This document shows, piece by piece, positions 142-21,204 of a stretch of 64,000 bases of DNA. Position numbers and translations under genes: made by a program. The notes beneath the pieces were generated by a model, which saw nothing but the letters and a program-made list of their open reading frames with translations, did not search any database and was not told where the DNA came from. The stretch comes from the human T2T-CHM13v2.0 reference genome, Homo sapiens. Every line of letters begins with the position of its first letter. The stretch's first letter is position 1. The stretch lies in assembly GCF_009914755.1 (NCBI RefSeq), contig NC_060934.1. One strand, 5' to 3'.

Positions 142-488
142 CAGTCAGCCCTCTGTATTCATGGGTTCCACATTCATGGATTCAACCAACCACAGATAAA
201 AAAACATTTGAAAAAAAGAAAGAAAAGAATAGTTGCATCTATACTGAACATGTACAGACTTTTTTCTTATAATTTCCTAAGTGACACAGTATAACAACTA
301 CTTACATAGCCTTTACCTGGTGTTAGAGGTTATAAGTAATCTAGAGATGATTTAAAGCATACAGAAAAATGTGCATAGGTTCTATGCAAATACTACATCA
401 TTTTGTATAAGGGACTTGAGCATCTGTGGATTTTTGTATCTGTGAGGGGTCCTGGAAGCAATCCCCCATGTATACTGAGAGACAACTG
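142..488 (-). mobile_element. MER2 (TcMar-Tigger MITE)
   Basis: ~347 bp, CAGT...ACTG terminal inverted repeats, TA at left flank; reverse complement begins CAGTTGTCTCTCAGTATACATGGGGGATTGCTTCCAGGACCCC like the MER2 consensus. Confidence 0.85.
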
Positions 489-18429: not shown

Positions 18430-18950
18430 ACAGGGTATTCATGCCAAAGTATCATCCCTCAGACTGTCTGCTAAGCTAACTGAAGAGGGGAAAGAGTGCC
18501 TCTACAATGGAGATATCTGGTGGTTACCGCCTTCATCAAGTGACCAAATTTAGCATCTCTAATAGTGAGACAATCTGACATTAGATGCCTTTGAAATATG
18601 CAATATGAAATACACAGGACCACCTATGAAATATCCTTGCCAATAATACTTAACTGAATATAATCAAACCTTTAGAACTAATTTCCACTTTCCAGAACAT
18701 ACAAGGAATAGAAAACAAATTTAAAAAAAAAAAAAATAAATCACAAATAAGTAATCCAAAGTACTGGATATTCTACAAGACAACTGGCCTGGTCTGTTCA
18801 AAACAGTGTGTCAAAGAATGCTGAGAAGTGGGGAGGTGGAAGGGAAATGTAACAACCAAATACAATTAGTGACCTCTGACAGTCAAGCAAGTCACCTTGG
18901 GACAGTCAGGGAAATTTGAATATGGACTGGACATTAGACAATACTAACAT
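18430..18950 (+). mobile_element. ancient L1ME-type 3' fragment
   Basis: Resembles L1ME 3' UTR (CAAGTGACCAAATTTAGCATC; GAAATTTGAATATGGACTGG). Confidence 0.6.
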
Positions 18951-19519
18951 CCCTCCCTATTTTTAGCTGTTGGAATTATTTGAAAACAAAAGCAGGACAA
19001 ATTTAGTCAATAGAATCGTTATCTTTTAAGGTATGCACAATGATATGGTGTTACTTTTATTCTGGCAAACACTAGTAACTACCAACACATACTATGATGT
19101 AGGGTTCACAAAATTCTAGCCTGATCCATACTATGTACTGTCTGGTGAAGTTTTTTTTATCTTCCTTGAGTTCATCATTTCTCAACGTGTCTTTCAGCAA
19201 CTGACCAGCAATCTCTACAACTTCTTGCTCTGCCACAAATAAAACTTATTTATACAAAGACAGTGTAATGGTTTCTGTCACACTGTCTGGTTATATCTCT
19301 TTATCAAGTATCTGTATGTCTTTATCAAACTGTTCCTTATCGTTAATTCTATCCAAAGCCTTAGTCATAAATCCAGTGGAATTTTCAGGATTTTTCTCAC
19401 TCTGTCACATCTGGCATCACAGATTGCTTCTTAAAATTCTTCCTCTGTTGGAAATACACTCTCAACACTCTCCTTTACGTAGCTTGGTTAAGTCCTATTC
19501 ATTCTTTTTATTTTATGGG

Positions 19520-19630
19520 TTTTTTTTTTTTTTTTTCAAGACAGGGTCTCACTATGTTGCCCAGGCTGATCTTGAACTCCTGGGCTCAAGTGATACTCCT
19601 GCCTCAGCCTCCCACAGTGCTAGATTACTA
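19520..19630 (-). mobile_element. partial Alu (left arm)
   Basis: Poly-T followed by left-arm consensus. Confidence 0.85.
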
Positions 19631-19799
19631 TGACCTTATTTAACCTTGATCACCTTCTCATGGACCTTAGGGGTTAGAGCTTCAACAGAAGACTTTGTAG
19701 GGAGCACATTACAGTCTCTGCAAGCCATGGACATGGTGACAATTTTATTCCATTCTAACTGCAGATTAAATTAACCTCCATGTTAATCTGCAGCATGTT

Positions 19800-19931
19800 T
19801 TCTTTCTTTCTTTCTTTCTTTTTTTTTTTTGAGACGGAGTCTTGCTCTGTCGCCCAGGCTGGAGTGCAGTGGCGTGATCTCGGCTCACTGCAATCTCCGC
19901 CACCCGGGTTCATGCCATTCTCCTGCCTCAG
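19800..19931 (-). mobile_element. AluY 3' portion, truncated abruptly
   Basis: (TTTC)n/T tail, GGGTTCATGCCATTCTCCTGCCTCAG, then non-Alu sequence. Confidence 0.92.
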
Positions 19932-19934
19932 AGA

Positions 19935-19983
19935 ATCTTATTTTCTGCACACTGCTGTGTATAAACATACATTTTTTTATATA

Positions 19984-20017
<34 letters not shown>

Positions 20018-20484
20018 CACACACACAAATATGTAGTGATAAAACTATATAGATGATATTTCCATAATTAATACATGTTTATATTAATGTCAATTTTAAT
20101 GTATGAATATGTATTAAATAAAAACCCATTTCATTTACATATACATGTATATCCTTCCTTCCTTCCTTCTTTCATTTATTATTTTTTATTTTCATTTATT
20201 TATTTTCTTTTTGGGCCTGCCTGGTCTTCTCACTCTGGGCTCTGGTGACCTCAGCCTCCCAAGTAGCTGGGACTACAGGGATCTCTTAAGCCCGGGAGGC
20301 AGAGGCTAATGTGGGCTGTGATCGCGCACCTCCACTCCAGCTTACGTGAGGTGGGGTGAGGAGAGGCGAGGTGGGGTGAGGTGAGGCGAGGTGAGGTGAG
20401 GTGAGGTGAGGTGAGGTGGGGTGGGGTGAGGTGGGGTGAGGTGGGGTGAGGTGGGGTGAGGTGGGGCGAAGTGGGGCGAGGGGG
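19935..20484 (+). other. dispersed rDNA intergenic-spacer-like fragment
   Basis: Colinear motifs recalled from the human rDNA IGS: TCTTATTTTCTG..(CA)n..GTAGTGATAAAACTAT..GATATTTCCATAATTAATAC..GGGACTACAGGGATCTCTTAAGCCCGGGAGG..CCACTCCAGCTTACGTG..(GTGGG)n; not verified by search. Confidence 0.8.
20346..20484 (+). repeat. G-rich pentamer tandem repeat (GTGAG/GTGGG/GCGAG)n
   Basis: Direct reading, ~27 pentamers. Confidence 0.95.
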
Positions 20485-20499
20485 CACCCGGCCCTATTA

Positions 20500-20760
20500 G
20501 CTCTTGAAAACAAGTTGAGATGTGATTTCCCCAGAAGACTTCCCTCGCAAGGACCTGACTGCCACCACCATTCTGTGATATGCCCTGGGCTGGCCTCTAT
20601 CACATTCAAAACACCGTACTGTAACTATGTACGTATGTCTGTCTTCCTACTAGACATGAGTTTTTTTTGAGGGCCAAGGCTCTGTATTTTATTTCTGTCC
20701 ACTTGGCGTTTAGAAGTACCTGAGACATAGAAAATGTTCTTTGAGTTGATCAATGAATTT
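20500..20760 (+). mobile_element. L2 3' relic
   Basis: GTCTGTCTTCCTACTAGAC...TTGATCAATGAA resembles the L2 3' end. Confidence 0.55.
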
Positions 20761-21204
20761 TACAACAATAAAGAGAAGGAAACAGGCTCAAAGGAGTTAA
20801 GTAATTTGCTTAAGATTACACAGCTAATAAGTTGTGAGCTAATAACTCCAGCCACAGGTCTTCTGATTCTAAATTCCCCCAAACACCACCTTGTGCACCA
20901 TCAACCATTTGTGAAGACTCTTCATTTACAATACAAAAATTAACCTTTTCTTGGGTATTCCATGAGCTGGGAATGTAGAAATAGACTAGGCAAGAAAAAT
21001 TTTCATTCTATGTTTAAGCAGAAGTAACAGGGGTTCTCAAGAAACAGAACTCTGAGAGATCTGTCCAGCCTCAGAGCCAGTGTTTTAAAGAAGTCCTGGA
21101 GCCTTAGGCCATATATGGGTAATCTAGAACAAGTATCTTCAATACACATAGCGTGTGAGAAACTTTTTGTTAAATGAATAAATGGAGAACAAAAATAAAA
21201 TGAA

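What the first reader, a model, noticed from the sequence alone, without database searches (positions are those of the whole stretch)
19800..20505. Ribosomal-DNA intergenic spacer fragment captured in CUL2 intron 17 between two Alu ends
Seen: an antisense AluY stops at 19931 (…CCTGCCTCAG) and switches to ~550 bp of other sequence. That sequence contains a (CA/TA) tract, an AT-rich block, a (CCTT)/T-rich block, an inverted Alu-fragment junction (antisense 20249-20279 fused to sense 20280-20342) and a G-rich pentamer array. It ends at a 10-nt Alu 5' terminus (GCACCCGGCC, 20484-20493). The outer flanks differ (…GCAGCATGTTTT versus CTATTAGCTCTT), so there is no shared TSD. From memory, this motif order, especially GGGACTACAGGGATCTCTTAAGCCCGGGAGG…CCACTCCAGCTTACGTG followed by (GGGGT)n, is colinear with the human 45S rDNA IGS, with several recalled CpGs decayed to TG/CA here. 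Inference: nucleolar-organiser sequence was pasted into a euchromatic gene. One route is filler capture in double-strand-break repair that deleted DNA between two Alus; another is an L1 reverse-transcriptase template switch from Alu RNA to an antisense IGS transcript. CUL2 pre-mRNA would then carry antisense-IGS sequence. The copy would also be a dated fossil of ancestral IGS and a mismapping source for rDNA reads.
Basis: partly seen in the sequence, partly recalled or inferred. Interest (0 to 1): 0.8.

Follow-up and report, generated by a model that had tools for sequence, protein, structure and literature searches.

The report
Ribosomal-spacer fragment patched into CUL2 intron
A roughly 550-base copy of the spacer between ribosomal RNA genes really does sit in an intron of CUL2, as one of three unrelated DNA pieces that were stitched together into an old Alu element, most likely when a chromosome break was repaired millions of years ago.

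Summary
Window 19934-20483 is colinear with the rDNA intergenic spacer: 82% identity to tandem units of 44,929 bp on C15, which Rfam confirms as rDNA. The match lies 2.77-3.22 kb past the 28S end, on the sense strand.

- The supposed native left flank (19629-19808) is a 180-bp copy of C6:15.26 Mb at 95% identity.
- The 10-nt Alu terminus at 20484-20493 pairs with an older Alu monomer at 19514-19628, not with the AluY fragment. About 14 nt are missing between the two.
- An 855-bp, three-piece insert (chr6 piece, AluY 3' end with tail, IGS piece) therefore splits one old Alu. It has no TSD, and both tested junctions are unique in the genome.

The chr10 IGS copy is closer (86-88%) to degenerate rDNA units on chr2, chr15p and chr20, but lacks their two shared indels. 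The donor was either an older-type array unit or an early dispersed unit.

My best reading is a single break-repair patch of the endonuclease-independent or templated-insertion type. Whether the templates were RNA or DNA is unresolved. It is a new member of a known kind, of moderate interest.

The parts
19514..19628 (-). Left half of the target: an old Alu left-monomer (antisense on +) with a T17 run at 19520-19536, cut off 24 nt short of the Alu 5' end
   Evidence: 44 non-self alignments to other window Alus at 78-85% identity. Of these, 20 end at 19628 and 1 at 19627, and the other Alus continue for about 24 more bases. Searches show the T17 run.
19629..19808 (+). Donor piece 1: a 180-bp copy of C6:15260693-15260872 (+). 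Its last 11 nt (19798-19808, T-rich) overlap the Alu tail
   Evidence: only 2 copies in the genome (self and C6), 95% identity; 185 nt at 94.6%; in chr6 the stretch runs on into flanking sequence on both sides; 9 substitutions in 180 nt, no indel; homology ends at 19808.
19809..19931 (-). Donor piece 2: the 3' end of a Y-type Alu (antisense on +) with its (TTTC)n-T12 tail (to 19830) and body 19831-19931. It breaks about 100 nt into the right arm
   Evidence: 91-96.5% identity to the best Alu in each of 8 of 9 fetched loci (80.9% in the ninth, L035), with every listed alignment ending at 19931; maps to positions 197-321 of a full Alu with tail; 34-mer shared exactly with 2 other Alus. The 'AluY' label rests on recalled diagnostic bases.
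19932..19933 (.). Two-base filler (AG) between the Alu piece and the IGS piece
   Evidence: Alu similarity ends at 19931 and IGS similarity starts at 19934.
19934..20345 (+). Donor piece 3a: the non-array part of the rDNA IGS fragment, in sense orientation. It corresponds to 2.77-3.2 kb downstream of the 28S 3' end
   Evidence: 82% identity to array units, 86-88% to the chr2, chr15p and chr20 degenerate units.
20346..20483 (+). Donor piece 3b: G-rich 5/10-nt array that continues the IGS array. It is about 136 bp here against about 37 bp in array units and about 50 bp in the chr2 copy
   Evidence: period 5 and 10, score 167/188; the IGS and chr2 copies carry the same array at the same place; no IGS similarity beyond it.
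20484..20493 (-). Right half of the target: the last 10 nt (5' terminus) of the same old Alu monomer
   Evidence: 9 matches against 0.64 expected; the other matches checked against one search are Alu termini. (register with 19514-19628, about 14 nt missing).

Best explanation
A chromosome break inside an old Alu monomer in CUL2 intron 17 was repaired by end joining with an 855-bp patch (19629-20483). About 14 nt of the Alu were lost.

The patch is a chain of three templated pieces from unrelated places:
- 180 bp of chr6;
- the 3' ~100 nt plus tail of a Y-type Alu;
- about 450 bp of rDNA intergenic spacer with its G-rich array, later expanded to 136 bp.

I take it to be one event of the endonuclease-independent, 'class 2 templated insertion' type. 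At least the Alu piece was copied by reverse transcriptase, and the polymerase switched templates at short overlaps: 1 nt, 11 nt of T-rich sequence, a 2-nt filler, and about 3 nt.

The IGS donor was a unit of an older sequence type. It was either the array itself at that time or an early dispersed rDNA unit. It was not the present chr2, chr15p or chr20 copies.

Per-branch divergence of about 1.7-2.5% puts the event very roughly 15-30 Myr ago, using a recalled rate of ~1e-9 per site per year. No function is implied. CUL2 pre-mRNA simply carries antisense IGS and a C-rich repeat.

Shown: the identity and limits of the pieces, the split Alu, the lack of a TSD, and the uniqueness of the junctions. 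Inferred: a single event, break repair, RT involvement and the age.
For: IGS origin:
- 36 of 40 scored hits lie in arrays with a 44,929-bp period at 82% identity.
- 18S, 5.8S, 28S, pRNA and mir-663 are on the same strand; the match lies 2765-3221 nt past the 28S end.
- a 20-mer from the piece occurs at 220 forward places, including chr10; the listed places are almost all periodic array units.

Three pieces and a split Alu:
- define the chr6 piece (2 copies genome-wide; 9/180 substitutions).
- Alu alignments all stop at 19931.
- 21 of 44 Alu alignments stop at 19627/19628.
- the 10-mer occurs 9 times against 0.64 expected.

Not a mobile composite:
- each junction pattern with <=3 mismatches has 1 hit, controls 0.
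- both outer flanks are unique to chr10 apart from short (38-84-nt) repeat-like hits within 20767-20876.

No TSD.

Similar ages of the pieces:
- chr10 tip of the IGS tree is 0.017.
- chr6/chr10 pair is 5.0%, so about 2.5% per branch.
- The Alu piece is 3.5-9% from other Y-type copies.

Precedents:
- Sen et al. 2007 (PMC1920257, section 11 and passages read): 15 of 21 endonuclease-independent L1 insertions carried 4-312 nt of extra DNA. One had 267 nt from another chromosome at 94%. 18 had target deletions.
- Onozawa & Aplan 2016 (PMC5110952, abstract and sections 4 and 9 read): class 2 templated insertions lack a TSD and show microdeletion, microhomology and non-templated bases.
- IGS is transcribed on both strands (Feng & Manley 2022, PMC9575697, passages read).
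Against: - No pre-insertion (empty) site could be examined. The single-event claim therefore rests on parsimony: an Alu landing exactly on a chr6/IGS junction is otherwise needed.
- Nothing distinguishes RNA from DNA templates.
- The Alu piece keeps its tail, unlike the 3'-truncated elements used to define endonuclease-independent insertions (Sen 2007).
- If synthesis ran left to right, the chr6 and IGS templates would have to be antisense to the likely host gene (JmjC exons on C6 +) and to Pol I transcription. If it ran right to left, the Alu template would have to be an antisense Alu embedded in another RNA.
- The IGS piece has only 4 private changes in 330 columns. That is somewhat fewer than the ~2.5% per branch of the chr6 piece would predict, though small numbers allow it.
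- The old Alu's own TSD is not demonstrable.
Confidence: 0.5

Rival explanations
1. DNA-only replicative template switching (MMBIR/FoSTeS-like, or synthesis-dependent repair with several invasions). A broken or stalled 3' end copied three genomic DNA templates in turn (rDNA IGS, a genomic Y-type Alu with a (TTTC)n tail, chr6) and returned to the old Alu. No RNA or reverse transcriptase was involved.
For: Short overlaps occur at 3 of 4 junctions: 1 nt at 19628, 11 nt of T-rich sequence at 19798-19808, and about 3 nt (GCA) at the array/Alu-terminus junction. Piece sizes are 100-550 bp. Read right to left, the exit from the Alu tail into chr6 falls exactly at an 11-nt match. A genomic Alu with the same 34-mer and a TTTC-type tail exists (L037, 95.3%).
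Against: Three donors on different chromosomes is unusual for germline replicative switching (recalled knowledge). One junction has a 2-nt filler rather than an overlap. No donor Alu could be identified: the best match is 96.5% over 113 nt, no better than expected between unrelated Y-type copies. The Alu piece spans exactly tail to break, as a partial cDNA would.
Confidence: 0.25
2. The three pieces were already joined elsewhere, for example in a pericentromeric or acrocentric duplication mosaic. One 855-bp DNA fragment of that mosaic was then captured in CUL2, and the donor has since been lost or is absent from this genome.
For: The closest relatives of the IGS piece lie in pericentromeric degenerate rDNA units. 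Such regions are patchworks (recalled knowledge; Robicheau 2017 notes the centromere-proximal bias).
Against: Both junction patterns are unique in this complete genome. The chr6 piece has only two copies. Only 4 old-type IGS copies exist, and the other three continue colinearly with IGS on both sides.
Confidence: 0.08
3. Separate events over time. An IGS fragment and a chr6 fragment were inserted independently, and a 5'-truncated AluY later retrotransposed exactly between them.
For: Alu insertions are very common. The Alu piece has a normal tail.
Against: The Alu would have to land precisely on the boundary of two foreign pieces. It has no TSD: the sequences on its two sides come from different chromosomes and share no repeat. 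The divergences of the three pieces are compatible with one age.
Confidence: 0.07
4. Classical L1 endonuclease-dependent chimeric retrocopy. Target-primed reverse transcription started on Alu RNA and jumped to an antisense IGS transcript.
For: On the minus strand the order is IGS(antisense) then Alu 3' end then A-rich tail, as in known bipartite chimeras (recalled). Antisense IGS transcripts exist (Feng & Manley 2022, passages read).
Against: There is no TSD. The insertion site lies inside an Alu body rather than at a T-rich nick site. A 180-bp chr6 piece lies 3' of the Alu tail, so the tail is not at the end of the insert. About 14 nt of the target are deleted.
Confidence: 0.03

Closest known systems
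Endonuclease-independent (non-classical) L1/Alu insertions at double-strand breaks (Sen et al. 2007, PMC1920257; the Alu counterpart study is recalled, not read)
   Same: There is no TSD and a small target-site deletion, and the site is not at an L1 nick site. A retroelement fragment is accompanied by 'extra nucleotides' that match other chromosomes. Their NCLI65 carries 267 nt from chr8 at 94%.
   Different: The Alu piece here keeps its A-rich tail. There are two long foreign pieces (180 and ~550 bp), one on each side, and one of them comes from the rDNA spacer.
Class 2 templated sequence insertions / TSIPs (Onozawa & Aplan 2016, PMC5110952)
   Same: A patch templated from distant loci sits at a break. 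It shows microdeletion, microhomology and a short non-templated filler, with no TSD and no terminal poly(A).
   Different: This is a chain of three donors rather than one. It is old and presumably fixed rather than polymorphic. Its 855 bp exceeds the 73-414 bp of their experimental events.
Dispersed degenerate rDNA units and 'rDNA-like signal' (Robicheau et al. 2017, PMC5381670)
   Same: The sequence is of rDNA IGS ancestry and lies outside the arrays. The chr2 and chr20 relatives found here lie in the regions where that paper describes near-full-length units.
   Different: Those are near-full-length, centromere-proximal units thought to move as DNA blocks. This is a 0.5-kb fragment inside a euchromatic gene intron, joined to non-rDNA pieces. 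That paper's main text has 0 occurrences of 'chromosome 10', 'HSA10', 'CUL2' or 'intron'; its supplements were not seen.
NUMT-type capture of organelle or foreign DNA at breaks (Hazkani-Covo & Covo 2008, PMC2567098; search listing and abstract start only)
   Same: Non-homologous end joining uses unrelated DNA as filler during primate evolution.
   Different: The donor here is nuclear rDNA spacer plus chr6 plus an Alu, not mitochondrial DNA.

Membership tests
Human 45S rDNA intergenic spacer (derived copy) | Colinear similarity that includes the non-Alu, non-microsatellite parts | tested here: met
   One block covers 19934 to about 20394. Outside the microsatellites, 330 gap-free columns were compared and 268 of them are invariant.
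Human 45S rDNA intergenic spacer (derived copy) | The matching array is truly rDNA, and the position in the unit is defined | tested here: met
   18S, 5.8S and 28S on C15 +. The match lies 2765-3221 nt past the 28S end. The period is 44,929 bp.
Human 45S rDNA intergenic spacer (derived copy) | Direct descent from the arrays rather than from a dispersed pseudo-unit | tested here: inconclusive
   chr10 groups with the chr2, chr15p and chr20 copies against modern rDNA at 28 of 330 columns, but lacks their two shared indels. The tree is an unresolved star. No outgroup was available.
Class 2 templated sequence insertion | No TSD and no terminal poly(A) | tested here: met
   (9/12 match, reached by 169 of 500 shuffles). 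The only A/T tail is internal, at 19798-19830.
Class 2 templated sequence insertion | End-joining marks: microdeletion, microhomology, non-templated bases | tested here: met
   About 14 nt of the Alu are missing. Overlaps are 1 nt, 11 nt and about 3 nt, with a 2-nt AG filler.
Class 2 templated sequence insertion | Template was RNA | not testable with these tools
   No splice junction or other RNA mark lies in the pieces. The orientation argument cuts both ways.
Endonuclease-independent retroelement insertion (NCLI/NCAI) | Absence of TSD, a target deletion, and a site unlike the L1 nick consensus | tested here: met
   The break lies inside the Alu body between 19628 and the last 10 nt of the Alu.
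Endonuclease-independent retroelement insertion (NCLI/NCAI) | 3' truncation or absence of the poly(A) tail of the element | tested here: not met
   The Alu piece keeps T12 plus (TTTC)n at 19809-19830.
L1 template-switch chimeric retrocopy (target-primed) | TSD around the whole chimera, with poly(A) at its 3' end | tested here: not met
   No TSD. The 180-bp chr6 piece follows the tail.
   The Y-type piece covers only the last ~100 nt plus tail. The 10-nt terminus is in register with the older monomer at 19514-19628, not with the Y-type piece.
Replicative template switching (MMBIR/FoSTeS) | Microhomology at every junction | tested here: inconclusive
   3 of 4 junctions show an overlap. One of these is a single base, and the fourth junction has a filler.

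The most novel reading that the evidence does not exclude
The insert is a germline fossil of RNA-templated break repair. One polymerase run strung together three cellular RNAs: a nucleolar spacer transcript from the ~16-kb IGS region (where heat-shock-induced IGS16 RNA is said to arise), an Alu-bearing RNA, and a pre-mRNA of a chr6 JmjC gene. That would be direct evidence that nucleolar non-coding RNA can be written back into a euchromatic gene.
Probability: 0.3. Interest if true: 0.6.

Novelty: new member of a known kind. Interest (0 to 1): 0.42.

Why it matters
This locus is a clean, fully resolved natural example of a multi-donor patch at an ancient chromosome break, with an unusual donor, the rDNA spacer, inside a normal gene. 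It shows that short rDNA-spacer fragments can reach euchromatin by patch repair, and not only as whole units near centromeres. It preserves an older version of a fast-changing spacer region, which could help polarise spacer evolution. It also gives four exact junctions against which RNA-templated and DNA-templated repair models can be tested once primate orthologs are compared. It is unlikely to affect CUL2 function.

Tried and rejected
1. Mobile composite. Both junction patterns are unique in the genome. Rejected.

2. The chr10 Alu fragment as the Alu that neighbours this segment in the IGS. That IGS Alu is degenerate and matches only 71 nt at 83%, against 91-96.5% for ordinary Y-type Alus. 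Rejected.

3. Alu-homology-guided capture. The donor-side Alu in the IGS is not in register with the chr10 junction, and the only Alu-like match in the fetched chr6 locus is a 57-nt stretch about 1 kb from the donor piece. Rejected.

4. IGS homology continuing past the array into 20482-20900. Nothing was found even at word size 7 and E<=0.01. Rejected.

5. Finding the donor Alu by its two rare bases. There were 32 places with <=1 mismatch and 3 exact including self, none clearly closer than background. Inconclusive.

6. A TSD for the old Alu monomer. The best match is 9/12, starting exactly at 20494, but it is not significant.

7. More old-type or outgroup IGS copies. Only 4 old-type copies were found. 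A shared 20-mer gave 224 places, of which 124 were not listed, and the fourth reverse-strand hit was not examined.

8. A tree to place chr10. It is unresolved on substitutions alone, and only two indels separate chr10 from the other three copies.

10. Primate IGS identities. The table in Agrawal & Ganley 2018 (S4) is an old .xls supplement and was not opened. The main text gives no numbers.

11. Literature. One paper holds 'CUL2', 'rDNA' and 'intergenic spacer' together. It is a review on stress organelles, seen in the search listing only, and by its title it is unrelated to this locus.

Full report
**What is there**

Window 19400-20900 contains the following, left to right:
- a T17 run followed by an antisense Alu-like stretch (19514-19628);
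- about 180 bp of ordinary-looking sequence;
- a (TTTC)n-T12 tract and about 100 nt of antisense Alu ending at 19931;
- an AT-rich stretch with CA/TA and TCCT microsatellites;
- a short antisense Alu bit;
- a 136-bp G-rich array with 5/10-nt period at 20346-20481;
- the 10-mer GCACCCGGCC at 20484-20493.

One exception is that the 'sense' half of its inverted Alu junction is only weakly Alu-like: 9-14-nt matches at E 0.037-0.15, against 31 nt at 96.8% for the antisense half.

**The rDNA claim is right**

I searched the window's own genome with 19932-20493. Forty of 622 candidates were scored:
- the window itself;
- 36 hits at 82% identity covering query positions 3-452..477, of which 32 lie on C15 spaced 43,949-44,929 bp apart, 3 on C21 and 1 on C22;
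- three better hits at 86-88%, at C2:132.71 Mb, C15:14.79 Mb and C20:29.98 Mb.

I fetched 50 kb spanning one C15 unit. Rfam found 18S, 5.8S, 28S, pRNA and mir-663 there, all on the + strand. The match lies 2765-3221 nt downstream of the 28S 3' end. That is about 15.8-16.2 kb from the transcription start if the 5'ETS is ~3.66 kb, a length I recall rather than measured.

The window + strand is therefore the IGS sense strand, and the minus-strand CUL2 pre-mRNA carries antisense IGS.

A 20-mer from the piece occurs at 224 places, 220 of them forward. One is chr10. All other forward places among the 100 listed are periodic array units; 124 places were not listed.

Homology starts at exactly 19934 and runs into the G-rich array. 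Beyond the array the IGS and chr10 share nothing, even at word size 7.

**Which rDNA?**

The alignment was reduced to 330 gap-free, non-microsatellite columns, which divide as follows.

| Pattern | Columns |
|---|---|
| Invariant | 268 |
| chr10 agrees with chr2, chr15p and chr20 against modern rDNA | 28 (22 outside CpG context) |
| Private to chr10 | 4 (1 outside CpG context) |
| Shared by the three paralogs alone | 1 |
| Private to one paralog | 21 |
| Shared by two paralogs | 4 |
| chr10 shares a state with only some paralogs | 4 |

Points bearing on the donor:
- The three paralogs share a 3-nt deletion and a 3-nt insertion that chr10 and rDNA lack.
- The maximum-likelihood tree is an unresolved star of the four copies. 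Tips are chr10 0.017, chr2 0.009, chr20 0.027 and chr15p 0.06, and the star lies 0.109 from modern rDNA.
- Only these four 'old-type' copies exist genome-wide.
- The chr2, chr15p and chr20 loci are colinear with the IGS across most or all of the ~3.4 kb fetched. This fits the near-full-length degenerate rDNA units reported on HSA2 and HSA20 (Robicheau et al. 2017, PMC5381670; abstract, section 24 part 1 and passages read).

So the chr10 piece is of rDNA-IGS lineage, but it is not a descendant of the three extant paralogs. Without an outgroup I cannot say whether its donor was the array in an older sequence state or an early dispersed unit.

The 'native' left flank is foreign:
- Window 19632-19798 has exactly one other match in the genome, at C6:15,260,696-15,260,862, with 95% identity.
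- Aligned, the homology spans 19628-19812 at 94.6%. More precisely it is 19629-19808, with 9 substitutions, no indel and one CpG change.
- In chr6 the stretch runs on into its surroundings on both sides, so chr6 is the donor.
- JmjC-domain exons lie 120 kb downstream on the same strand. By recalled coordinates the site is probably intronic in JARID2.

Further left, 18900-19530 is unique to chr10. To the right, 20482-20900 is unique apart from short repeat-like hits.

The Alu-like stretch at 19514-19628 is older than the Y-type fragment: 78-85% identity to other window Alus, against 91-96.5% for the Y-type fragment. Of its 44 non-self alignments, 21 stop at 19627 or 19628. The other Alus then continue for about 24 more bases, and the last ten are the 10-mer type found at 20484-20493. 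That 10-mer is far above chance: 9 matches against 0.64 expected.

So 19514-19628 and 20484-20493 are the two halves of one old Alu monomer, missing about 14 nt and split by 855 bp.

**Junctions**

| Junction | Feature |
|---|---|
| Old Alu / chr6 piece | 1 shared base, at 19628 |
| chr6 piece / Alu tail | 11 shared T-rich bases, 19798-19808 |
| Alu body / IGS piece | 2-base filler AG, 19932-19933 |
| IGS array / Alu terminus | about 3 shared bases (GCA) |

There is no TSD: the best flank repeat is 9/12, reached by 169 of 500 shuffles. Both tested junction patterns are unique in the genome. No donor Alu could be singled out.

**Mechanism**

Foreign sequence from different chromosomes lies on both sides of the Alu fragment. 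An independent Alu insertion would therefore have had to hit that boundary exactly, so a single composite event is the economical reading.

The marks fit repair of a double-strand break with templated patches: no TSD, a small target deletion, a site inside an Alu body, short overlaps, and one filler. Two described classes match:
- class 2 templated sequence insertions (Onozawa & Aplan 2016, PMC5110952);
- endonuclease-independent retroelement insertions, in which 15 of 21 cases carried 4-312 nt of extra DNA, including 267 nt from another chromosome at 94%, and 18 had target deletions (Sen et al. 2007, PMC1920257).

The Alu piece runs from its tail to an internal break, as a partial cDNA would. 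That is why I favour reverse-transcriptase involvement with template switching.

The direction of synthesis is open:
- Left to right needs ordinary Alu RNA plus antisense IGS and antisense chr6 transcripts.
- Right to left needs sense IGS and sense chr6 transcripts plus an antisense Alu embedded in some RNA.

Both IGS strands are transcribed (Feng & Manley 2022, PMC9575697, passages read).

A purely DNA-templated chain (MMBIR-like) explains the overlaps equally well and is my main rival.

**Age**

Three divergence measures bear on the age:
- the chr10 tip of the IGS tree, 0.017;
- about 2.5% per branch for the chr6 piece;
- 3.5-9% between the Alu piece and other Y-type copies.

All are compatible with one event roughly 15-30 Myr ago at a recalled rate of ~1e-9 per site per year. 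The counts are small, and this needs primate orthologs.

**Novelty and importance**

Dispersed rDNA units, templated patches and filler-bearing endonuclease-independent insertions are all in print. This locus is a new and unusually clear member, with three donors, one of them the rDNA spacer, inside a gene.

I found no description of it:
- Robicheau 2017's main text has 0 occurrences of 'chromosome 10', 'HSA10', 'CUL2' or 'intron'. Its supplements were not seen.
- A library search for CUL2 + rDNA + intergenic spacer returned one paper, a review that by its title does not concern this locus.

No function is suggested. At 82% identity it is an unlikely sink for modern rDNA reads; that is inference.

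Noticed in passing
window 19931 and 20249-20254: The Y-type Alu fragment breaks at CCTCAG. The IGS-internal antisense Alu bit begins with the same CCTCAG at essentially the same Alu position, so the two Alu pieces would join almost seamlessly if 19932-20248 were removed. The IGS bit is present in all rDNA copies, so this is probably coincidence.
   Followed up: partly
L008 1200-1483 (C15 rDNA unit) and L002 reverse complement 1202-1490: In the IGS the captured segment is preceded by a (TTTC)n(TC)n tract and a degenerate antisense Alu plus about 16-19 nt. This is the same order (T-rich tract, antisense Alu, segment) as in chr10, although the chr10 Alu is a different, younger copy.
   Followed up: partly
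L024 1309-1398 and L023 9135-9224 (C15 rDNA unit): Rfam places a mir-663 precursor match (102.5 bits) in the 5' external transcribed spacer and pRNA just upstream of the start site in the fetched rDNA unit.
   Followed up: no
L029 about 1280-1500 (C6:15.2605 Mb): The chr6 donor stretch begins inside what looks, by recall only, like an old interspersed repeat that continues to its left. The chr10 copy starts in the middle of it, which supports chr6 as the source.
   Followed up: partly
window 20767-20876: Twenty-seven short (38-84-nt, 76-92%) matches scattered over many chromosomes point to an old interspersed repeat in the native right flank.
   Followed up: no
G000: One of the four reverse-strand matches to the shared 20-mer is not among the chr2, chr15p and chr20 copies and was not listed. 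It may be a chance match (the control gave 1) or a fifth dispersed copy.
   Followed up: no
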